IMG/VR virus record: IMGVR_UViG_2778261506_000002
Strand: one strand, 5' to 3'
DNA length: 18,236 bases
Source: a virus
Lineage: Duplodnaviria; Heunggongvirae; Uroviricota; Caudoviricetes
A model generated the notes under the pieces. The model was not told the DNA's origin. It searched no databases and saw nothing but the letters and a program-made list of their open reading frames with translations. Made by a program: the position numbers and the translations under genes. Positions 8,495 to 17,884 of the stretch are shown in pieces. The first letter of the stretch is position 1; every line of letters begins with the position of its first letter.

Positions 8495-10453
8495 TTACGC
8501 CGTACATTTCACCAGACCGCGGTGATCAACTGGCGCGACACCGGCGTCAATACGCACTTTCGTTGTCACGCCATCCACACTGAAGCCCTCCATCTGATCA
8601 ATATATGGCGTATCCACACCGTTGAGATAAGCCACTTCAATCGTATCGGAGCCTTTTGACGCAGCCAGGTAGAAGGTGGTCTGGCTGTTATCATCAAGAC
8701 GAGGCTCTGCAATAACGGTCGCAAAATCTTTCACCGGGTTAATAATACCGGCGTTAATGTCAGCCCCCTTGACACTTGAGGAGCGAATGACCTGGTTAGC
8801 AACAGACTCCATCGCCGTCGGTACCAGTACGAACGCAGGACGAATATTCAGATGACGCTCCCCCTCTTTCTGAACGCGCATCAACTGGCGGGCTTTATCC
8901 AGCGATGCCACGTCCATTGCAGCGCTCTCCAGTACGTTTGCATGTTTCGCTTTATCGAACAGACTTACATTATCTGTGGAGATTTTCGGGTTAGACGTCA
9001 GAATGGCATAAACCAGATCGGCAATAGTGGATTTCGCCGCACGGCCCAGTTTCATCGGGACATCGGTCAGCATATTCAGATCATCATTGATAATGGCCTG
9101 ACGGGTGATACTGAACAGCTCGCCATAGGTCGCCAGTGCAATAGTGGCCTGTTTATCTCCGGTGGTGACGTATTTATATTCCGCCCCTTCACGCACCTGA
9201 CGCAGAGCACTGAAGCCCCCCATACCCACACGATGGGCAATTTTAAAATCAGACAACTGACCTTTCCGCGTCCACTGTTCATAGGTTTCAGGGGCATCTT
9301 CCCAGCCCTGCAGAATGGCTTTGTTCGCAACATCCAGCAGAATATTACCGAAGTCAGACGTACTGTGTGTGAACGCCGCACCGACCATCTGCATCGGGTT
9401 ATAACCGGAAACCCCAATACCCCGTTCAGTTAGTGACATACGGGCATATTCACGCAGGGTCATCCCGTTGTAGACATTATCACGTTCGGTTTTTTCAAAT
9501 CCGGCACGCGCCATCAGCGCCTGGCGGATCCCGTCCCCCACAAAATTACCGTTACCGGCATAAATATGAGCCGGGGTATTTTTATTGGATGGCGTGGACT
9601 CGCGCCCCATCTCGTTCAACAGCTTTTCACGGGCCTGCTCCAGCGAACATTCAGGATCGGCAAGACACTGGGCCTGCAGCATCTGATAACGCCCGCCAAA
9701 CATGGCAAACAGATCATTAATACCGTTTACACGCGCTTTTTGCTCTGCCAGTACCTGCGCACGGATACTGTTTTCATCCACCACGGGTGCTGCTGCCTGC
9801 ACTGGCGTCCGGGAGGCTGCAGGTTCATCATCCTGTACGCGTGGAGCACTGTTGCGTGGCGGAGTAATCATGTTTCGAATGGATTCCGGCATCTTTTTAA
9901 ATTCCTCTGTACGTTTTGACTGAATACATGCCATTGCCTTAACGGCTGGTGTCACCTGATCAGCAAATCCCTGTGCCAGACATTCGGCACCGGACATCCA
10001 GGTCTCATCCGCCAGCATGGCAGCAATTTCATCGGTGGTTTTCCCGGTTTTCTGTGCATAAGCGGGTAACAGAACCGCCTCAACTTTATCGAGCAGGTCG
10101 GCATAGGTGCGCATGTCCTCCGCATCACCGCCCGTAAAGCCAAATGGTTTATGAATCATCATGAAGGAGTTTTCCGGCATAATGACCGGGTTTCCCACCA
10201 TCGCAATGACCGACGCCATTGACGCCGCCACACCGTCGACATAAACGGTAATGGACGCACCATGTGTTTTCAGTGCATTAAAAATGGCGATGCCTTCAAA
10301 GACATCGCCACCCGGTGAATTAATATGGAGATTAATGTGGGTGATATCGCCCAGTGCATTCAGATCACTGATAAACTGCTTCGCTGTAACACCCCAGAAA
10401 CCAATCTCGTCATAAATATAAATATCCGCGTCACTCTGGTGACCTGCCTGCAT
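8495..10453 (-). CDS. Prohead protease / major capsid protein fusion (ClpP/S49-like protease N-terminal domain, HK97-fold capsid C-terminal domain)
   Basis: Track ORF 8495..10714 overlaps the portal 3' end; first ATG after the portal stop is 10453, about 652 aa. N-terminal IYIYDEIGFWG...INSPGGDVFEGIAIFNALK...VDGVAASMASVIAM looks like a ClpP-family serine protease. A Pro/Ala/Gln-rich linker follows, then a roughly 350-aa capsid-like domain. Confidence 0.8.
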   Translation of the reverse strand: MQAGHQSDADIYIYDEIGFWGVTAKQFISDLNALGDITHINLHINSPGGDVFEGIAIFNALKTHGASITVYVDGVAASMASVIAMVGNPVIMPENSFMMIHKPFGFTGGDAEDMRTYADLLDKVEAVLLPAYAQKTGKTTDEIAAMLADETWMSGAECLAQGFADQVTPAVKAMACIQSKRTEEFKKMPESIRNMITPPRNSAPRVQDDEPAASRTPVQAAAPVVDENSIRAQVLAEQKARVNGINDLFAMFGGRYQMLQAQCLADPECSLEQAREKLLNEMGRESTPSNKNTPAHIYAGNGNFVGDGIRQALMARAGFEKTERDNVYNGMTLREYARMSLTERGIGVSGYNPMQMVGAAFTHSTSDFGNILLDVANKAILQGWEDAPETYEQWTRKGQLSDFKIAHRVGMGGFSALRQVREGAEYKYVTTGDKQATIALATYGELFSITRQAIINDDLNMLTDVPMKLGRAAKSTIADLVYAILTSNPKISTDNVSLFDKAKHANVLESAAMDVASLDKARQLMRVQKEGERHLNIRPAFVLVPTAMESVANQVIRSSSVKGADINAGIINPVKDFATVIAEPRLDDNSQTTFYLAASKGSDTIEVAYLNGVDTPYIDQMEGFSVDGVTTKVRIDAGVAPVDHRGLVKCTA

Positions 10454-10466
10454 CCTGAACCAGGAA

Positions 10467-11975
10467 TTATTCTTCGGACTGGTCGTCGGTGTGCTGCGGC
10501 TCCTGTCGTTTCGTTGCGGCACTGCTGCCTCCTTTATCACTGGCCGGATCGGTATCAAATACCAGATCCAGCTTGCGGTTTTCATCAATTTCGGCCTTGC
10601 GCCGACGTTTGACATCATCCGGATTACGACCACCTGCACGTACCCAGTCTGATTCTGTCGCCGCTCCACCACGAATCTGAATTTTCCAGGCCTCAGCCTC
10701 CTTAACAGGGTCAATCCACGGCATCACCGGTCCGGAATACACCGCGGTATACAGTGAAGATCGGTCCAGATCGCGGGGTAGCCTGATAACACCGGATGCC
10801 ACAGCCTGTTTCAGCCAGGCACGGTACATCGGGCGGGTGACGGCACCAATAAACCAGTCCTGCAGGATCAGGTAGCCATCAGTAGATTCAACCAGCTCCT
10901 GACGCTGGGCGCTGTAAGTGCCGTTATAGTTGCGCGCTGTACTGGAAAAACTCAGACGACTGCCCGCAGCCACGGCACGCAACTGACCATTACGAAAAGT
11001 TTCAAGGTTAGGATTGGGGCGATCCGACTTCACCATTCCGATTTCTTCGCCGGGTTTCAGATCGTCGTAAATAATGCCTGGCTGAATGGTAAGCTCGCGT
11101 TCATTCTCCTTGCTGTCATTACCATCCGTTTCATAGCTCTGTCCGTCGCCTTTCCGGATGTACATCCCCAGAGCAGCGGCGATCCTTGCTGCAGTCAGCT
11201 CAGAATCTTCATACTCTTTCAGAGCACTGAGGCGGATCAGCACACCGGACAACAAAGACGTCCCGCGCATCTGGTGCAGACGGCGAACAAATTTAAGATG
11301 CAGCATTCGCTCTGCATCCACTTCTTTGGTTTCCATCTGCCGCCCGGATACGGGACGGCTTTTATACACCAGATATTTTTCGGGACGCCCCCAGTCATCA
11401 ACAAACACGCCCTGATTCAGCCTGTTGCTCTCATCACTGGTCATGGGAATAAAGTCCGGCTCGAGCGCCTCCAGCCAGAAATGAACACCGGCAGAAGGCG
11501 TCAAGCTGTTTATGCGCCCGGAAACCATCTGGGCAAACACCTCACCATCGCGCAGCCAGGTACGCAGCATCAGACGTTCCAGCATCGGACGGGTAAACTG
11601 CCCGGTGACTTCCGGACTGACAGACCATTCACTCCATCGGGTGCGTATCTCCGCTGCCAGATCACGGGCAATGGCCCCATTGCGTAATACCGGATGTGGC
11701 TCGACAATAATCCCGTTTTTCCCCACCACCCGTTCTTCCAGCTTGTCAAATACACCAATGACCAGATCGTGGTTGTTATCAAGGTAACGGGCCTGCTCAC
11801 GTAACGACACGGCCCCGTACTGGCTTAACTGGTCGGCAGTTCGGTTCTCCCGTCGGGCTTTGTGTGTCCGCGTCGTTTTTACGGCCTCATAAGCCTGAAT
11901 CACCGCACGGGAACGCAGCCTTGCCGCTTTCCATCCTGGTGAAAAAACGCCAATCACATCATCAAGAATTGCCAT
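10467..11975 (-). CDS. Portal protein (lambda gpB-like)
   Basis: Track ORF 10467..12047; ATG at 11975 forms an ATGA overlap with the gpW-like stop. About 502 aa, between gpW-like and the protease/capsid gene. Confidence 0.8.
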   Translation of the reverse strand: MAILDDVIGVFSPGWKAARLRSRAVIQAYEAVKTTRTHKARRENRTADQLSQYGAVSLREQARYLDNNHDLVIGVFDKLEERVVGKNGIIVEPHPVLRNGAIARDLAAEIRTRWSEWSVSPEVTGQFTRPMLERLMLRTWLRDGEVFAQMVSGRINSLTPSAGVHFWLEALEPDFIPMTSDESNRLNQGVFVDDWGRPEKYLVYKSRPVSGRQMETKEVDAERMLHLKFVRRLHQMRGTSLLSGVLIRLSALKEYEDSELTAARIAAALGMYIRKGDGQSYETDGNDSKENERELTIQPGIIYDDLKPGEEIGMVKSDRPNPNLETFRNGQLRAVAAGSRLSFSSTARNYNGTYSAQRQELVESTDGYLILQDWFIGAVTRPMYRAWLKQAVASGVIRLPRDLDRSSLYTAVYSGPVMPWIDPVKEAEAWKIQIRGGAATESDWVRAGGRNPDDVKRRRKAEIDENRKLDLVFDTDPASDKGGSSAATKRQEPQHTDDQSEE

Positions 11976-12187
11976 CAGAACCTCGCCAGCCGGTACCCGG
12001 GATGCCCCCGTCGTCGTGTAATCAGAGCCGCAAGGCGGCGCTCCCACTCCTGCCGTCCCTGCCGGATCTCAGATAAGTTTTCCATGGTCATCTGCTGACC
12101 ATTAAAAGTGACGGATTTTCCGTCCAGCACCGCCATTTCAGCTTCCGTATAACGCTGAATCATGGCTTCAATATCATTCTGATTCAT
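11975..12187 (-). CDS. Head-tail joining protein (lambda gpW-like)
   Basis: 70 aa from ATG 12187, which has GGAGG 6 nt upstream and a 4-nt overlap with the terminase stop. Size and position match lambda gpW (68 aa). Confidence 0.65.
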   Translation of the reverse strand: MNQNDIEAMIQRYTEAEMAVLDGKSVTFNGQQMTMENLSEIRQGRQEWERRLAALITRRRGHPGYRLARF

Positions 12188-14283
12188 AACCATCCTCCGG
12201 AAGTCAGCCAGGGGTTAACATCGTCAGTTACTGTTTTCTTCCGTTTTTGTTTTTTAACAGGCGTGGATACCGGCTCCGGTGAGGGTGACGGTTCGGTACT
12301 GTCCGGGACACACTCCAGCCAGGTTTCCCGGCTCGCCCACTCCGGTGCATCCGGCCAGCGGATCTTTTCGTATCCATGCAGAATGACCAGCGCCTCGGCA
12401 TACACCATCAGGTCAAAAGCTTCGTTGGCACCGCGACCCGGCTTACTCCATTTCCCGTCACTGCTCCGCTCTTCATACGTCAGTTCGTCGTAAAACCAGC
12501 TCCCCAGCCAGTCAGGGAAATACACATAGCCTGGACCTGGCGAGTCACGCCATAACGCGTTATTCACCCGGTCTTTCAGGGCATCCGTCTGAAGAAGCCA
12601 GAGCGGCACATCACCTGCGGCCTGCGCCCGGCGGCCCGTTCGTCCGGTGTTATCAGGGAATGTACGGCTGATCAGTTTTGCGCGCCGGATGCTGTCGCCC
12701 TTAAACAGGTAAATACGTTTACCAAGGCCATCACGACGGCAACGACGCCAGAATTTATAGGCATTATCAGTGACCCCGTCTTCACCGCCGGAATCCACCG
12801 CCATTGCCATCAGTCGCATTTGTTGAGAAGGATCGGAGGCCAGCGGCCAGCTTTTATGAAAAACATCCGTCAGCAGGACATCCCAGTCTTCCGGATAGCT
12901 GGCCGGATCAATTCGCTGGCTCTCCCCGTCGCAGTCACTGCGCAATGACTGCGTGATGTTGTAACGATCAATAATCCAGCGTTCGCCACGGCTGCCATAG
13001 CCCGTTACCTGAACCACAAAACGGCGATGACGTCCCGCCTGCACATCCACTGTCGCCACAAGGAAATTAACGCCATCCGGAACACTGCGGGAAGGAACTG
13101 GCTCTGCCCGCTGCTCAAGCAGTTCACTTTTTCGTTGCTCCATGCTGGCACGAGGAAGATAAGGCAATCCCCAGTCGGTGTTGATAACCGCCCTGAGTGT
13201 TTCTTCGCTTCCTGTCGCTTCATACTCCTGTTCTGCAGTCAGTAATTTGTAAACCAGTTGCGCCCAGGTCTGATACGCAGCAGCTGGCCCTTCCATCCAG
13301 AAACTGGCGATACGGGAGCGGCGCGGTTCACCGGAAACGTTGCCGTTACGATCAATGACCTGACCTTCACGTAACCAGACTCCTGCACTATTGAGCTCAC
13401 GCTTTTTCTCCGCAGTGATAATGCCGCTGCAGTGCGGGCAAAGTAGATACGCCGCCTCACTGGCTTTAAAGGGATCCGGTTCATTACGGTAGCCGGTCAT
13501 GGCATCCATAGCTGGCTGAAAATATTCACCGCAGTGCGGACATGGCCAGTACCAGCGGCGGCGGTCACCACGATTGTAAAGGGAAAGAATACCAGTCGTC
13601 GGTGGCGCTTCATGAGGCGACTTACGTCGCCATTTGCTGTCGCAGATGTCACGTCCCGGCGAGCTCTCCACCAGAGTCATCCCGGCGGACATAAATGTGG
13701 TGGTACGTTTTGAGGCCAGGGAGAAACCATCACCCTCGCTGTCGATATTCTCCGGAAAACGGTCGTAATCGGTTAAGGCGACAAACCGGTAATCCGACGA
13801 CGACATAATGTTGACCGAGGGCCAACCAATTTTAAGGAACGAGCCATCCCTGAACGTCTTATCATGGACATTATTGTCGTTACGACGTGGACTCATTCTT
13901 TTCTTTACCGCCGCACTGCTTCTGAACGTTCTGTCGAGGCGCTTTTTAGAATGCTCGCGGGCCTTATCTTCGGTCATCTGCACAACGAGCATGTCCGAAG
14001 GATCGCAAACGATGGTATAGACAATCCATCCATCGATCAGACCAATGGTCTTCCCTGTTCGCGCAGGACCAACAAAAATCACCGCATCGTATTCACGCGA
14101 TGCCAGGCAGTTCATGGGCTCAATGATGTAGGGTGTCAGTTCAGGATCCCATGGCACCGAGTTACCAGCCCCCTTGGGAACACGCATGAATTTTTTAACA
14201 GCCTCCGAAATCGGCATGCGACGTGGTGGGGAAAATCCTGCCGATATGTCCCTTCCCAAATTTCGGGCTGATGAAAAACCCAT
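12184..14283 (-). CDS. Terminase large subunit (lambda gpA family)
   Basis: 699 aa. Walker A-like VGPARTGKT near the N-terminus, a CPHCG...CPHC zinc-ribbon-like motif and acidic nuclease-type C-terminal half. GGAGG lies 4 nt before the ATG. Confidence 0.9.
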   Translation of the reverse strand: MGFSSARNLGRDISAGFSPPRRMPISEAVKKFMRVPKGAGNSVPWDPELTPYIIEPMNCLASREYDAVIFVGPARTGKTIGLIDGWIVYTIVCDPSDMLVVQMTEDKAREHSKKRLDRTFRSSAAVKKRMSPRRNDNNVHDKTFRDGSFLKIGWPSVNIMSSSDYRFVALTDYDRFPENIDSEGDGFSLASKRTTTFMSAGMTLVESSPGRDICDSKWRRKSPHEAPPTTGILSLYNRGDRRRWYWPCPHCGEYFQPAMDAMTGYRNEPDPFKASEAAYLLCPHCSGIITAEKKRELNSAGVWLREGQVIDRNGNVSGEPRRSRIASFWMEGPAAAYQTWAQLVYKLLTAEQEYEATGSEETLRAVINTDWGLPYLPRASMEQRKSELLEQRAEPVPSRSVPDGVNFLVATVDVQAGRHRRFVVQVTGYGSRGERWIIDRYNITQSLRSDCDGESQRIDPASYPEDWDVLLTDVFHKSWPLASDPSQQMRLMAMAVDSGGEDGVTDNAYKFWRRCRRDGLGKRIYLFKGDSIRRAKLISRTFPDNTGRTGRRAQAAGDVPLWLLQTDALKDRVNNALWRDSPGPGYVYFPDWLGSWFYDELTYEERSSDGKWSKPGRGANEAFDLMVYAEALVILHGYEKIRWPDAPEWASRETWLECVPDSTEPSPSPEPVSTPVKKQKRKKTVTDDVNPWLTSGGWL

Positions 14284-14291
14284 TATTCCTC

Positions 14292-14819
14292 CTAGAGACT
14301 CTCTCCTTCCTCATCAGGAATTAATTCAGCAGCACAAGCCTCGTAGGATTTTTCCTGAAGAGTGTATCGCAGGTCATCAATGGCCTGCTGTACAACGCCG
14401 ACGGCCTGAGGAGTCAGGGCGCAATCGCGTTCAAGAACATCCGGAATTGTCTCCAGAACCTGGACGACAGCCTTTCTCATGGACGAATAGACGATGACTA
14501 CTTCATCAACTGGGATGAGTTTTCGCTGCTCCTTTTCCAGCTTGATCCTTTCATTTTCAGACTGGTACCAGTCTTTTCTCTCTTTCGGCTCCATACGGGA
14601 TGGATCATGAACAGAGTCTGCTGCCTCATGCTTCACACTAAACAGGGCGGGCCCGACATGCTGCAGGGCGTAAACGGGGTTCCCCCTGACAGTCGCAGCC
14701 ACAGGAGTGTTGGCCGCGAGGAGCCGTTTTTTTACTGTGTCCCGGTGAAGCCCAAAGGCCTCGGCGATTTTAAAAACACTCCAGTAATAAGCATCACCGA
14801 TCCCGCTCACATTTGACAT
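14292..14819 (-). CDS. Terminase small subunit (N-terminal helix-turn-helix, Nu1-like role)
   Basis: Immediately upstream of the large subunit. N-terminal SVFKIAEAFGLHRDTVKKRL is HTH-like. ATG at 14819 has GGAG 6 nt upstream; the track start 14831 has none. About 175 aa. Confidence 0.7.
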   Translation of the reverse strand: MSNVSGIGDAYYWSVFKIAEAFGLHRDTVKKRLLAANTPVAATVRGNPVYALQHVGPALFSVKHEAADSVHDPSRMEPKERKDWYQSENERIKLEKEQRKLIPVDEVVIVYSSMRKAVVQVLETIPDVLERDCALTPQAVGVVQQAIDDLRYTLQEKSYEACAAELIPDEEGESL

Positions 14820-14835
14820 AAGCAACTCCATCTGG

Positions 14836-14921
14836 CAGGTGAAAATCAGGTTTATTTATATATTTCAATTAATTGCAAACTGGTCTAATGACAGGGAGAA
14901 AAAATATTGTACAGGTGAAAA
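14836..14921 (-). repeat. Candidate cosB: three direct copies of TTTTC(A/T)CC(C)TG between cosN and the small terminase start
   Basis: Plus-strand CAGGTGAAAA at 14836-14845 and 14912-14921, with a degenerate CAGGGAGAAAA at 14892-14902. Spacing from the putative cosN resembles lambda R-site placement. An IHF-like TAATTTATTGATA is at 14939-14951. Confidence 0.35.
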
Positions 14922-15002
14922 GAGAAATAACTTTTAATTATCAATAAATTACCAAACATGCTGCCGCCGCCATGGAAATGCAAAAACTAGTCTTTTTCCG
15001 CG

Positions 15003-15014
15003 ACGCTCCCGCCC
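15003..15014 (-). other. Candidate cosN, predicted 12-nt cohesive end 5'-GGGCGGGAGCGT
   Basis: Minus strand reads GCCACG|GGGCGGGAGCGT|CGCGGAAAAAGA. From memory, lambda's cos junction is ...GTTACG|GGGCGGCGACCT|CGCGGGTTTTCGC, with identical flanks and 8 of 12 matching core bases. It is a GC island in AT-rich DNA, 184 nt upstream of the small terminase ATG (lambda: 190). Confidence 0.45.
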
Positions 15015-15043
15015 CGTGGCAGGGGCCCCCACCGGGAGGACCC

Positions 15044-15067
15044 GACAGCCTGACAGCCTGACAGCCG
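15044..15067. repeat. Tandem 8-mer GACAGCCT x3 (third copy GACAGCCG)
   Basis: Perfect tandem array 30-64 bp on the genome-end side of the putative cosN. GCCTGACAG recurs at 15318-15326. Confidence 0.6.
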
Positions 15068-15202
15068 TGATGAGCATCTGATACAGCGCTTTACATAATG
15101 GCATAGGAATAATTCAGAAGGACATCACAGCATGCCCACACAAATTAGTGTGAGTGTCCTGTTTCTTCCTACGCACAGGACTGACGAGCATGAGGGGAAA
15201 AT

Positions 15203-15370
15203 ATGCGAACCATAAATGCCTCATCTTCAGCAATGCAACAGGCATCCGAACAGGACGATATTGTAAATTCACCTAATTACGAGGACATTGCAGTAGTTGA
15301 ATTGCAGCTCTGTATTAGCCTGACAGTGACAGAATGCGATATTGACTCTGTCACAGGTGAAATAGTTTGA
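15203..15370 (+). CDS. Hypothetical small acidic protein (55 aa); real status uncertain
   Basis: ATG at 15203 preceded by GAGGGG at 5 nt; TGA at 15368-15370. Below the track's size cutoff. An overlapping 28-codon frame from ATG 15189 also exists. Confidence 0.3.
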   Translation: MRTINASSSAMQQASEQDDIVNSPNYEDIAVVELQLCISLTVTECDIDSVTGEIV

Positions 15371-15390
15371 ATGATTAGCAGTTATGGTGC

Positions 15391-15597
15391 TCAGTCAACC
15401 ACCAGGGAATAATCCTTCGAATTCTTATCGTGCTTCACCAACGCTGCCTCAATTGCCCTGAATGCTTCCAGAGACACCTGATGTTCTATACATGCAATTA
15501 CAACATCCGGGTAACTCATAGAAATGGTGCTATTAAGCATATTTTTTACACGAATCAGATCCAACGAGAGTTCATCAGCAGATTGTTCTTTATTCAT
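15391..15597 (-). CDS. Hypothetical protein (68 aa)
   Basis: Track ORF with a true ATG at 15597 and GGAG 7 nt upstream. Low GC. No recognisable motif. Confidence 0.45.
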
Positions 15598-15897
15598 TTT
15601 GTCGCTCCATGCGTTTGCTCGTCATCTAGCGGTTAAAATATTACTTCAAATCTTACTGCATAAAAGAGGAAAAGTATGAAAGTTTGAGTACATCGACCTT
15701 ACATACATCTGTCGGTTGCATATCCCTCCTGGATGCCAGCAAGGCTCAATTTTGTTACGCAATCAACACTATTCATCAAAAACAGGCTTAATATTTGACA
15801 TAAATCATCAACAAAACACAAAGAGGTCAGACCAGATTGAAACAATAAACACGATAATGCTAACTACGCGCCATCGTATCACATGGAAGGTTTACCA

Positions 15898-16308
15898 ATG
15901 GCTCAGGCTGCCATTTTTAAAGAAATATTCGATCAAGTGCGTAAAGATTTAAACTGTGAATTATTTTATTCTGAGCTAAAACGTCACAATGTCTCACTTT
16001 ATATTTACTATTTAGCCACAGATAATATTCACATTGTGTTAGAAAACGACAACATAGTGTTAGTAAAAGGACTCAAAAAGGTTGTAAATGTTAAATTCTC
16101 CAGAAACAAACATCTTATAGAGACCTCCTATAATAAGTTGAAATCAAAAGAAATCACATTTCAACAATACAGGGAAAATCTTGCTAAAGCAGGAGTTTTC
16201 CGATGGGTTACAAATATCCAGGAACACCAAAGATATTACTATGCCTTTGATAACTCATTACTATTTACTGAAAGCATCCAGAAAACTACACAGATCTTAC
16301 CACGCTAA
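15898..16308 (+). CDS. ydfO: DUF1398-family protein (YdfO/YbcV-like)
   Basis: Track ORF 15883..16308; second ATG at 15898 has GGAAGG 7 nt upstream, giving 136 aa (the size I recall for K-12 YdfO). It occupies the position ydfO has in the Qin prophage. A stem-loop follows at 16317-16345. Family and symbol are by size and synteny only. Confidence 0.5.
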
Positions 16309-17099: not shown

Positions 17100-17306
17100 C
17101 TTCATTTTCACTTTTTTAAATCCAACGACAGACGGCTGGCATTTAAGTATTGTGAAATATTATCAAATGTAATCATCATTGATTTACAAAAGATACATTT
17201 TGCCCCGAAAGGATTCATGTCAGAAACATCAAAAGATGATGTTCTATACTGGGAACCATGACAACACGGGCATCTAAAGTGAATATGGTTTGTAATATTG
17301 TCTACC

Positions 17307-17519
17307 TCAAAGCGCCACTACATGAACAGCGGCAGGACCTTTAGGTCCGTTCTCAATACCAAATTCAACTTCCTGATTCTCAGTTAATGTTTTGAAATCG
17401 TTGCTCTGAATTGCTGAGAAATGGACAAACACATCTTTGCTGCCATCTTTCGGCGTGATGAAACCAAAACCTTTTTCAGGGTTAAACCATTTCACTAAAC
17501 CAGTCATTTTGTTAGACAT
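17307..17519 (-). CDS. cspI: Cold shock protein, CspA family (CspI/CspB-like)
   Basis: 70 aa [38 protein letters not shown]..., with the RNP1/RNP2-like cold-shock-domain motifs. A long AT-rich 5' leader is typical of csp genes. The symbol is by similarity and Qin synteny; cspB-type cannot be excluded. Confidence 0.85.
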
Positions 17520-17623
17520 AATTATTACCTTTTGAAGAAATTAGCCCTTGGGCAGAATGGTCCGAAAAAAAATATCAGAGAGAAAAACCAACAAGGAAAT
17601 CTCAAGAGGTACAAATAATAAAA

Positions 17624-17629
17624 TTATAA
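17624..17629 (-). promoter_or_regulatory. Candidate sigma70 -10 box (TGT-TATAAT) for the cspI-like gene
   Basis: Minus-strand TATAAT with an upstream TG, about 100 nt before the cspI ATG. No convincing -35 box. Not verified. Confidence 0.3.
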
Positions 17630-17884
17630 CAATGACTGCTTCAGATAAATTTGTAACAAACCAGAACACCATTAACGCATGATTAACCACCCATAGCAAG
17701 GATTACTTTTGTAAAGAAAAACACAGCAATGAAAGAATAGCTTTATTTATTAATAAAACGTGTCATTCTGATTAAGACCTTTTATCTTACCCTTAAGATT
17801 TCAGGAATTTTGGCTCATGGAAGAGTCCTTTTTATTTAAATTTTACATTCCGCGATGTAAATGTTCCGATTTAATATTACCCTA

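What the first reader, a model, noticed from the sequence alone, without database searches (positions are those of the whole stretch)
14990..15020. Candidate cosN with a lambda-like architecture but a different cohesive-end sequence
A GC island in AT-rich DNA reads on the minus strand GCCACG|GGGCGGGAGCGT|CGCGGAAAAAGA. Its flanks (ACG...GGGCGG and CGCGG) match what I recall of lambda's cos junction, while the central bases differ (GGGCGGGAGCGT versus GGGCGGCGACCT). It lies 184 nt upstream of the small terminase ATG. If correct, it gives the exact genome ends of this phage and predicts cos-type packaging with a 12-nt 5' overhang that is not lambda-compatible at 4 positions.
Basis: partly seen in the sequence, partly recalled or inferred. 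Interest (0 to 1): 0.55.

Follow-up and report, generated by a model that had tools for sequence, protein, structure and literature searches.

The report
Lambda-type cos site of a prophage

Summary
The sequence is as described. The minus strand at 15020..14991 reads GCCACG|GGGCGGGAGCGT|CGCGGAAAAAGA, an 83% G+C island next to 32% G+C DNA. It lies 184 nt upstream of the small-terminase ATG at 14819.

Anchored on lambda's cos junction, it shares ACG|GGGCGG, the CG pairs flanking both nick positions, and CGCGG. The 12-mer differs from lambda at positions 7, 8, 9 and 11. It differs from Salmonella phage Gifsy-1 (GGGCGGCAGCGT) only at position 7.

- An exact lambda cosQ heptamer, GGGTCCT (15043..15037), 22 nt before the nick.
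- An A/T-tract I2-like block.
- An R3-like block that changes with TerS type.
- A perfect IHF consensus (14939-14951) in lambda's I1 orientation.

Downstream lie a DUF1441 small terminase (predicted winged HTH) and a gpA-type large terminase.

GenBank records for phage cdtI (2007) and phage Tritos both start at GGGCGGGAGCGT and end in ...GCCACG. Tritos has an identical TerS, ~98% nucleotide identity over 15 kb, and makes virions and plaques. The region is 100% identical to a prophage of E. coli ATCC 25922, and 2050 of 5426 complete E. coli genomes hold a match to it.

Verdict: interpretation supported by homology. No virion end-mapping was found for this exact 12-mer. Already known; low interest.

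The parts
15037..15043 (-). cosQ-like heptamer GGGTCCT, 22 nt upstream of the top-strand nick (23 nt in lambda). Proposed packaging-termination signal.
   Evidence: Identical to the lambda heptamer at the same anchored position and to Gifsy-1. The combined pattern with cosN is unique in the window, 0.00 expected by chance. PMC4669245 states that the 7-bp cosQ is highly conserved among lambda-like phages. That lambda cosQ is bp 48473-48479 (GGGTCCT) is my recollection, not checked in a paper.
15001..15016 (-). cosN core: CG|GGGCGGGAGCGT|CG. Predicted top-strand nick between 15015 and 15014; predicted bottom-strand nick between 15003 and 15002.
   Evidence: Records for cdtI and Tritos are opened exactly at 15015|15014. 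The record for the related phage yong2 is opened exactly at the equivalent of 15003|15002. The CG flanks are described as highly conserved in PMC4669245.
15003..15014 (-). Predicted 12-nt 5' cohesive end GGGCGGGAGCGT (left end of the virion chromosome).
   Evidence: It differs from lambda GGGCGGCGACCT at positions 7, 8, 9 and 11 and from Gifsy-1 GGGCGGCAGCGT at position 7 only. The same 12-mer is found in cdtI, Tritos, PhiR40_1, phi458 and contig L020.
14975..14997 (-). I2-like spacer with A5 and T5 tracts (AAAAAGACTAGTTTTTGCATTTC, cos bp 18-40). Proposed static bend between cosN and cosB.
   Evidence: Conserved as AAACGGCT.GTTTT...ATTT across 17 DUF1441-type cos regions. [quoted passage not shown] Bending was not tested here.
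14957..14974 (-). R3-like block CATGGCGGCGGCAGCATG (cos bp 41-58). Candidate proximal TerS binding site.
   Evidence: It lies near the position of lambda R3, bp 50-65 (PMC9026076). Its sequence changes with TerS type:
- GGCGGCAGCATG with TerS at least 84% identical
- GTCAGCAGCAGGTG with TerS about 55% identical
- CATCATCATCAT-type with TerS about 41% identical
This is an inference; no binding data.
14939..14951 (+). IHF consensus TATCAATAAATTA (WATCAANNNNTTR, 0 mismatches), cos bp 64-76, I1-like.
   Evidence: 2 matches in 18 kb, 0.69 expected. It has the same strand orientation as lambda's I1-region match at bp 79-91. ATCAA....TTA is kept at the same position in Providencia, Proteus and Xenorhabdus orthologues while the NNNN bases vary.
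14832..14921 (-). Distal cosB. It holds two exact TTTTCACCTG copies (14921..14912 and 14845..14836), TTTTCTCCCTG (14902..14892), and a 35-bp block CCCTGTCATTAGACCAGTTTGCAATTAATTGAAAT (14896..14862). Candidate R2/R1-type TerS sites.
   Evidence: One search gives the positions. The 35-bp block and CCTGCCAG are kept in the cos regions with 84-86% identical TerS. Orthologues with 55% TerS identity carry GAGGTGACA/TGTCACCTC inverted repeats at the same places. The assignment as TerS sites is inferred.
14292..14819 (-). terS: DUF1441-family small terminase, 175 aa, with a predicted N-terminal winged helix-turn-helix.
   Evidence: Pfam PF07278, E 1.7e-44. 100% identical to the cdtI and Tritos TerS. 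The AlphaFold model has pLDDT 84 with an H-E-H-H-E-E-H N-terminal domain. The best Foldseek matches are MerR-type wHTH DNA-binding domains, but all have E>0.1. No significant sequence similarity to lambda Nu1.
12184..14283 (-). terL: gpA-type large terminase, 699 aa (ATPase plus endonuclease). The enzyme predicted to nick cosN.
   Evidence: Pfam GpA_ATPase 4.9e-81 and GpA_nuclease 6.2e-85. 24% identity to lambda gpA over 627 columns, E 3e-21.

Best explanation
Window 15043..14832 (minus strand) is the complete cos site of an intact lambda-like siphovirus prophage of the cdtI/Tritos type.

Proposed mechanism, by homology with lambda:
1. The DUF1441 small terminase binds cosB through an N-terminal winged HTH. 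cosB comprises the R3-like block, the IHF-bent I1 site and the distal repeats.
2. This positions the gpA-type large terminase on cosN.
3. TerL nicks the top strand between 15015 and 15014 and the bottom strand between 15003 and 15002.
4. The result is virion DNA with 12-nt 5' overhangs, GGGCGGGAGCGT at the left end.
5. Packaging runs from the cosB/terS end toward lower window coordinates.
6. It stops at the next cos, where the upstream GGGTCCT (cosQ) is needed for the final cut.

Shown here: the sequence architecture, its conservation pattern, and its coincidence with deposited genome ends.

Inferred: the nick positions, the 5' polarity and length of the overhang, and which cosB blocks TerS contacts.
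For: Exact sequence and anchored similarity to lambda, including cosQ.

The cdtI and Tritos records start and end exactly at the predicted top-strand nick. The yong2 record is opened at the predicted bottom-strand nick position.

Phage LLS carries a misc_feature '5' extended single-strand cohesive site GGGCGGCGCGCT' at the homologous site, with the same TerS family.

Gifsy-1, counted among the lambda-like cos phages in PMC4669245, differs from the window's 12-mer at one base only.

Seventeen related cos regions keep CCACG|GGGCGG and CGCGG while positions 7-12 vary. This matches the published functional asymmetry of cosN.

The IHF consensus is conserved in position and orientation.

TerL is gpA type, and TerL type predicts end type (PMC12315714).

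Cr-LKS3 has a DUF1441-type TerS. Its paper reports cohesive ends with 5' extensions at a lambda-like cosN (PMC9303873).

Tritos has an identical TerS and 98.3% nucleotide identity over 15 kb. It makes virions and plaques (PMC9928086).
Against: I found no virion end-mapping for this 12-mer. The string occurs in no phage paper of the searchable library.

The Asakura 2007 cdtI paper could not be read. I therefore do not know whether the cdtI ends were measured or chosen by analogy. The LLS ends are explicitly 'inferred'.

TerS is not a Nu1 homologue by sequence, so the cosB mechanics are extrapolated. No clear three-fold R repeat was found by the repeat finder.

Overhang length is not fixed in this family: 9 nt in Cr-LKS3, and 10-, 11- and 14-bp spacings in 1720a-02, VT1-Sakai and Gifsy-2.
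Confidence: 0.85

Rival explanations
1. The site is a genuine cos sequence but a relic. The prophage in this window is defective, so nothing is cut here in this strain.
For: No induction data for this strain were found. The window covers only part of the prophage. Related lambdoid prophages in E. coli are often degraded. VT1-Sakai and 1720a-02 show indels inside the 12-bp core.
Against: terS, terL, the portal gene and the protease-capsid gene are full-length open reading frames with complete Pfam domains. The 15 kb from cos to the tape-measure gene is 98% identical to Tritos and cdtI. Tritos forms virions and plaques. The cos core is identical to theirs.
Confidence: 0.1
2. Terminase cuts here, but with a different stagger or register than lambda, for example a 7-11 nt overhang. 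GGGCGGGAGCGT would then not be the exact cohesive end.
For: Cr-LKS3, which has a TerS of the same family, is reported to have a 9-nt overhang, and lambda-like overhangs as short as 7 nt are cited. Spacing between ACG and CGCGG varies from 10 to 14 bp in some relatives.
Against: Here the spacing between the two conserved CG flanks is exactly 12 bp, as in lambda and Gifsy-1. Independent records are opened at both predicted nick positions, cdtI and Tritos at one and yong2 at the other.
Confidence: 0.04
3. The GC island is not a packaging site. It would be a chance lambda-like string, a transcription terminator, or a structured element between the lysis/moron region and the head genes.
For: It lies in an intergenic region between operon modules and contains the short palindrome GGGGGCCCC.
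Against: The terminator scan found no terminator-like site. Single-strand folding is no better than shuffles, z = -0.53. There is no Rfam hit at this position. The composite pattern is absent from all 200 shuffles. The block is conserved at fixed distance from terS across Enterobacterales, Pasteurella and others.
Confidence: 0.01

Closest known systems
Bacteriophage lambda cos (cosQ-cosN-I2-cosB[R3-I1-R2-R1])
   Same: - Identical cosQ heptamer GGGTCCT, with 22 vs 23 nt spacing to the nick.
- Identical ACG|GGGCGG left half.
- CG flanks and CGCGG.
- A/T-tract spacer.
- IHF site in the same orientation.
- terS ATG at cos bp 196 vs 191.
- gpA-type TerL.

   Different: - The overhang differs at positions 7, 8, 9 and 11.
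- TerS belongs to DUF1441, not the Nu1 family.
- The IHF site is 15 bp closer to cosN.
- No lambda R-sequence (CGTTTCC...) is seen in the anchored comparison. The candidate TerS sites have a different sequence and are not proven.
Salmonella phage Gifsy-1 cos (cohesive end GGGCGGCAGCGT)
   Same: The 12-mer is identical at 11 of 12 positions. It has the same GGGTCCT, the same ACG| flank and the same 12-bp stagger. PMC4669245 lists it among the lambda-like cos phages.
   Different: Gifsy-1 has a Nu1/phage-21-type TerS and a lambda-like R3-I1-R2-R1 cosB. Position 7 is C, not G. The following flank is CGCAGG, not CGCGGA.
Phages cdtI (AB285204/NC_009514) and Tritos (OV696610)
   Same: Same 12-mer, same flanks, 100% identical TerS, and 97.9-98.3% nucleotide identity over 15 kb. 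Their records begin and end at this site.
   Different: Only point differences in cosB, for example AAAAAGG vs AAAAAGA. cdtI has a lambda-like sequence upstream of cosQ instead of the GGCTGTCA repeats. The window is the integrated form, as in E. coli ATCC 25922.
mEp213/LLS and mEp460-type lambdoid phages (DUF1441-type TerS)
   Same: Same cos architecture and TerS family. For the mEp460 type, the cosQ-cosN sequence is identical and TerL is about 96% identical at nucleotide level. LLS annotates a 12-nt 5' cohesive site at the homologous position.
   Different: TerS is only about 41-42% identical, and the R3-like block differs (CATCATCATCAT type). The LLS/mEp213 overhang is GGGCGGCGCGCT.

Membership tests
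[quoted passage not shown] | [quoted passage not shown] | tested here: met
   8 of 12 identical to lambda and 6 of 6 in the left half. 11 of 12 identical to Gifsy-1.
lambda-like cos sites | Conserved 5'-CG-3' dinucleotides flanking both nick positions | tested here: met
   CG|GGGCGGGAGCGT|CG at 15016..15001. The criterion comes from PMC4669245.
lambda-like cos sites | A conserved 7-bp cosQ upstream of cosN | tested here: met
   GGGTCCT at 15043..15037, 22 nt before the nick against 23 nt in lambda. The identity of lambda's cosQ heptamer is recalled, not read from a paper.
lambda-like cos sites | An I2 segment with A- and T-tracts (static bend) between cosN and cosB | tested here: inconclusive
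   A5 and T5 tracts at cos bp 18-33, conserved across 17 relatives. This is comparable to lambda I2, bp 18-50. Bending was not measured.
lambda-like cos sites | cosB with an IHF site flanked by TerS-binding R sequences | tested here: inconclusive
   The IHF consensus is perfect and conserved in position. The R3-like block changes with TerS type, and TTTTCACCTG is repeated. However, no lambda-style triple repeat was found by the repeat tool, and there are no binding data.
lambda-like cos sites | Site lies immediately upstream of terS-terL, with TerL of the gpA family | tested here: met
   terS 14819..14292 and terL 14283..12184. GpA_ATPase and GpA_nuclease domains are present. BLASTP against lambda gpA gives E 3e-21.
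lambda-like cos sites | Virion DNA carries complementary 12-nt 5' single-stranded ends at this site | not testable with these tools
   Indirect evidence only. The cdtI and Tritos records are opened at the site. Cr-LKS3, with the same TerS family, is reported to have 5' extensions. The LLS ends are 'inferred'.
lambda Nu1-family small terminase system | TerS homologous to gpNu1 | tested here: not met
   Pfam assigns DUF1441 only. BLASTP against Nu1 gives E 4.6. The predicted N-terminal winged HTH is of the same broad MerR-like fold class, but Foldseek E-values are all above 0.1. The site therefore works like lambda's, but the recognition subunit belongs to another family.
headful (pac) or 3'-overhang cos (HK97-type) packaging | TerL of the P22/Sf6/T4 type or the HK97 type, with no lambda-like cosN | tested here: not met
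   TerL matches only the gpA ATPase and nuclease families, and a lambda-type cosQ-cosN is present.

The most novel reading that the evidence does not exclude
The cos site is built from two independently exchangeable modules.

The first is cosQ-cosN, which travels with TerL. It is identical or nearly so in window-type and mEp460-type phages, whose TerL genes are about 96% identical.

The second is a cosB-TerS cassette. TerS is only about 42% identical between those two groups, yet 84-86% identical to contigs with a different cosN subtype (CACCGAG|GGGGC...ACA|CGCGG).

If the R3-like block at 14957-14974 is the specificity determinant for the uncharacterised DUF1441 small terminases, these natural chimeras are ready-made specificity-swap experiments. 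The 4-base overhang difference from lambda might also limit end-joining between co-resident lambdoid genomes.
Probability: 0.3. Interest if true: 0.3.

Novelty: already known. Interest (0 to 1): 0.12.

Why it matters
The practical value is limited to three points.
- It fixes the genome ends and packaging mode (cos, 12-nt 5' overhang, left end GGGCGGGAGCGT) for a very common E. coli prophage lineage. That lineage includes the prophage of the reference strain ATCC 25922, the Cdt-I-converting phage and the LF82 phage Tritos.
- It lets annotators open such genomes consistently.
- It supports naming DUF1441 proteins as small terminases.

It does not change what is known about lambda-type packaging. 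[quoted passage not shown] 2017, cited).

Tried and rejected
Papers I could not read:
- Asakura 2007 (cdtI), by DOI and by PMC id.
- Casjens & Gilcrease 2009.
- Vahanian 2017.
- Wieczorek & Feiss 2001.

Consequences: the basis of the cdtI ends, and whether this 12-mer is listed in the cosN survey, remain unknown. The cosQ coordinates rest on my memory plus sequence identity.

Searches that gave nothing useful:
- A full-text search for the 12-mer found only an unrelated paper.
- The Tritos paper does not say how the record's ends were chosen.
- I scanned IMG/VR for GGGCGGGAGCGTCGCGGAAAAAG, hoping for virome contigs that terminate at the site. It returned at least 120 contigs with internal matches, apparently mostly prophage regions of isolate genomes, so it gave no end evidence.
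- The mEp460_4F5 assembly starts 5 nt before the nick and lacks 2 nt of the 12-mer. I read this as an artefact, not evidence.

Ideas rejected:
- Terminator or structured element.

Analyses that were inconclusive:
- The generic repeat finder did not reveal lambda-like R repeats. I found TTTTCACCTG x2 by eye and by script.
- Sequence searches of TerS and TerL against the PDB gave nothing significant.
- Foldseek hits for TerS are all weak.

Full report
**Observation**

The minus strand of the window at 15020..14991 reads GCCACGGGGCGGGAGCGTCGCGGAAAAAGA. The proposed 12-mer GGGCGGGAGCGT occupies 15014..15003. The segment 14998-15050 is 83% G+C, against 32% for 14832-14997 and 44% for 15051-15400. 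The 'GC island' is therefore real.

Downstream on the same strand lie these genes:
- a DUF1441 protein
- a 699-aa protein with GpA_ATPase and GpA_nuclease domains
- a small W-like ORF
- a lambda-family portal gene
- a ClpP-protease/capsid fusion gene

The mechanical ORF for the small terminase starts at 14831. RefSeq starts it at 14819. Orthologues all begin MSN(I/V)S at the equivalent ATG. It puts the ATG at cos bp 196, against 191 in lambda.

**Comparison with lambda**

I fetched both ends of NC_001416 and laid the junction over the window without gaps. The identical parts are:
- ACG|GGGCGG
- the T at position 12
- CGCGG after the overhang
- further upstream, CGGGTCCT..CCGGTG

The 12-mers differ at positions 7, 8, 9 and 11.

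The heptamer GGGTCCT (window 15043..15037) sits 22 nt before the nick, against 23 nt in lambda. From memory this is lambda's cosQ (bp 48473-48479). PMC4669245 confirms that cosQ is a 7-bp element that is highly conserved in lambda-like phages.

The composite pattern GGGTCCT-N15-30-CGGGGCGG occurs once in the window and never in 200 shuffles. The 14-base flank pattern ACGGGGCGGNNNNNNCGCGG matches once, exactly; even with 2 mismatches allowed, shuffles give a mean of 0.14 matches.

**Deposited genomes**

Megablast against 50,697 phage records found that phage cdtI (AB285204/NC_009514) and phage Tritos (OV696610) match from their base 1 onward. That base corresponds to window 15014.
- Both records begin GGGCGGGAGCGTCGCGGAAAAAGG and end ...CTGCCACG.
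- Both encode a TerS 100% identical to the window's.
- They are 97.9-98.3% identical over the 15 kb from cos to the tape-measure gene.
- Tritos, a prophage of E. coli LF82, produces virions seen by TEM and forms plaques (PMC9928086).

The window's cos region is 100% identical to a prophage of E. coli ATCC 25922 and several other strains. A match to the region occurs in 2050 of 5426 complete E. coli genomes.

I could not find how the cdtI and Tritos ends were chosen. The cdtI paper is not held, and the Tritos paper is silent on this.

**Literature frame**

Feiss and colleagues define lambda-like phages by 12-base 5' extensions similar to lambda's. They list lambda, 434, phi80, 21, N15, Monarch and Gifsy-1. 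They make three points (PMC4669245):
- Natural differences cluster in bp 7-12. N15 differs at 9 and 12; Gifsy-1 at 8, 9 and 11.
- This reflects a functional asymmetry of cosN.
- The CG pairs flanking the nicks, and cosQ, do not vary.

I extracted the Gifsy-1 site. It reads GGGTCCTTTCCGGGAATTCTGCCTGTTACG|GGGCGGCAGCGT|CGCAGG. The window's overhang is one base (position 7) away from a member already accepted in that group.

A dedicated survey of natural cosN variation exists (Vahanian et al. 2017, cited), but I could not read it.

Phage LLS has a DUF1441-type TerS. Its record carries a misc_feature '5' extended single-strand cohesive site GGGCGGCGCGCT'. Its authors say the ends are inferred from TerL type and from the putative cos of mEp213 (PMC12315714).

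For the cyanophage Cr-LKS3, whose TerS is also of this family, cohesive ends with 5' extensions at a lambda-like cosN are reported. Those ends are 9 nt long (PMC9303873).

**Comparative footprint**

I collected cos regions upstream of DUF1441 TerS genes from three sources:
- phage records
- species-representative genomes
- metagenome contigs

Anchored at the nick, 17 of them share CCACG|GGGCGG, a variable right half, then CGCGG.AAACGGCT.GTTTT...ATTT..ATG. Across the wider set, the 12th base lies a near-constant 172-183 nt before the start of the TerS match in most enterobacterial and Morganellaceae loci. This is the conservation pattern expected of a functional cosN plus an I2-like spacer. Lambda's I2 spans about bp 18-50, contains poly-dA and poly-dT tracts, forms a static bend and is essential (PMC4856287).

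The Hafnia phage yong2 record ends ...GAG GGGGCAGCGACA and begins CGCGGG. It is opened at the position equivalent to the window's bottom-strand nick (15003|15002). Deposited records therefore mark both predicted nick positions.

**cosB**

*IHF site.* A perfect IHF consensus, TATCAATAAATTA, lies at 14939-14951 (+ strand), cos bp 64-76. There are only two matches in the 18-kb window, with 0.69 expected. It has the same orientation as lambda's I1-region match at bp 79-91. In Providencia, Proteus and Xenorhabdus orthologues the ATCAA....TTA core is kept at the same place while the central four bases vary.

*R3-like block.* Between I2 and the IHF site lies CATGGCGGCGGCAGCATG (14974..14957, bp 41-58), near where lambda R3 sits (bp 50-65; PMC9026076). 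This block changes with TerS type:

| TerS identity to window | Block sequence |
|---|---|
| 84-86% | GGCGGCAGCATG |
| about 55% | GTCAGCAGCAGGTG |
| about 41% | CATCATCATCAT-type |

*Distal cosB.* Beyond the IHF site are two exact TTTTCACCTG copies, a TTTTCTCCCTG, and a 35-bp block that is conserved in the closest TerS relatives. Orthologues at 55% TerS identity have GAGGTGACA/TGTCACCTC inverted repeats in the same places. I take these as candidate TerS sites. This is inference only, and the generic repeat finder did not pick out a lambda-style triple repeat.

**Proteins**

TerL is a gpA homologue: 24% identity, E 3e-21 against lambda gpA.

TerS shows no significant sequence similarity to Nu1 or to any PDB chain. 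An AlphaFold model from 33 homologues has pLDDT 84. It shows an N-terminal helix-strand-helix-helix-hairpin-helix domain followed by long helices. Its best Foldseek matches are MerR-type winged-HTH DNA-binding domains: RacA, BldC, TnrA, excisionases and a viral packaging-motor DBD (7lwr). All have E>0.1. This is compatible with Nu1-like DNA recognition but does not prove it.

**Rivals**

- *Terminator or structured element.* Excluded by the absence of terminator-like sites, a folding z-score of -0.53 and no Rfam hit.
- *Relic site in a dead prophage.* Unlikely given intact genes and near-identity to an active phage, but not excluded for this strain.
- *Different stagger.* Conceivable because overhang length varies in the wider family. 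However, the 12-bp spacing between the conserved CG flanks is the same here as in lambda and Gifsy-1.

**Mosaicism (side result)**

mEp460-type phages (Ayreon, 569R4, PhiR47_1) share about 96% nucleotide identity with the window from terL onward, and mEp460-type relatives (phi458, PhiR40_1) carry an identical cosQ-cosN. Their TerS is only about 42% identical, with a different R3-like block. Conversely, the TerS closest to the window outside E. coli (84-86%) sits behind a different cosN subtype, CACCGAG|GGGGC...ACA|CGCGG, and an AAAGGTACTCC element in place of GGGTCCT. The cosB-TerS cassette and the cosQ-cosN(-TerL) module thus appear to reassort.

**Verdict**

The site is a lambda-type cos, predicted to give a 12-nt 5' overhang GGGCGGGAGCGT. 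It is identical to the ends used in the public cdtI and Tritos records and one base from Gifsy-1's. It is already known in substance. The remaining gap is a direct end-mapping experiment. Interest is low.

Noticed in passing
window 15044-15066: There is a perfect tandem 8-mer (GGCTGTCA on the minus strand, 2.9 copies, TRF score 46) directly abutting cosQ. Copy number differs among relatives: 3 in the window and Tritos, 2 in PhiR40_1 and mEp460_4F5, and none in cdtI and phi458, which read like lambda upstream of cosQ. CTGTCA also recurs in cosB (14894..14889) and in the R3-like blocks of orthologues. Function unknown.
   Followed up: partly
window 14292-14975 versus 12184-14283 and 14998-15043: There is a mosaic boundary inside cos. 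mEp460/Ayreon/PhiR47-type phages share terL onward (about 96% nucleotide identity) and an identical cosQ-cosN, but carry a TerS only about 42% identical, with a different proximal cosB block. The closest TerS relatives (84-86%) sit behind a different cosN subtype.
   Followed up: partly
L014 (VT1-Sakai), L016 (1720a-02), L010 (Gifsy-2), L017 (Chris1), L059/L009 (yong2), L021, L063: Natural cosN variants occur with the same TerS family. The spacing between ACG and CGCGG is 11 bp in VT1-Sakai, 10 bp in 1720a-02 and 14 bp in Gifsy-2. A second subtype, CACCGAG|GGGGC....ACA|CGCGG, also exists. Many non-E. coli members have AAAGGTACTCC where lambda has GGGTCCT, so the cosQ position is not invariant in this wider group.
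   Followed up: partly
window 14819 vs 14831: The mechanical ORF for the small terminase starts at ATG 14831 (179 aa). RefSeq and orthologue N-termini (MSNVS/MSNIS) indicate ATG 14819 (175 aa). The cdtI GenBank record uses the longer form.
   Followed up: yes
window 17280-17665 (-) and 15883-16308 (+): There is an Rfam cspA thermoregulator hit (112.8 bits) upstream of a cspI-like cold-shock gene. In ATCC 25922 the region between the lysis genes and cos is annotated cspI, ynfQ, ynfR, ynfN, gnsB, plus an oppositely oriented DUF1398 gene. This is the moron cluster reported as highly expressed in Tritos lysogens.
   Followed up: no
L020 (JAGZPX010000007.1): A 22.9-kb contig labelled 'MAG: Veillonella parvula' carries a 99% identical TerS and the identical cosQ-cosN sequence. 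It is most likely a mis-binned E. coli prophage contig.
   Followed up: no
L007/L061 (LR595868.1, mEp460_4F5): The record is opened 5 nt upstream of the predicted nick and lacks 2 nt of the 12-mer (GGGCGGGAGCG--CGCGG). This looks like an assembly artefact at the physical ends of virion DNA.
   Followed up: partly
window 8495-10714 (-): A 739-aa ORF fuses a ClpP-type protease domain to a major-capsid domain. The LLS paper (PMC12315714) describes the same arrangement for Gifsy-2-type heads. It overlaps the end of the portal ORF in the ORF list.
   Followed up: no
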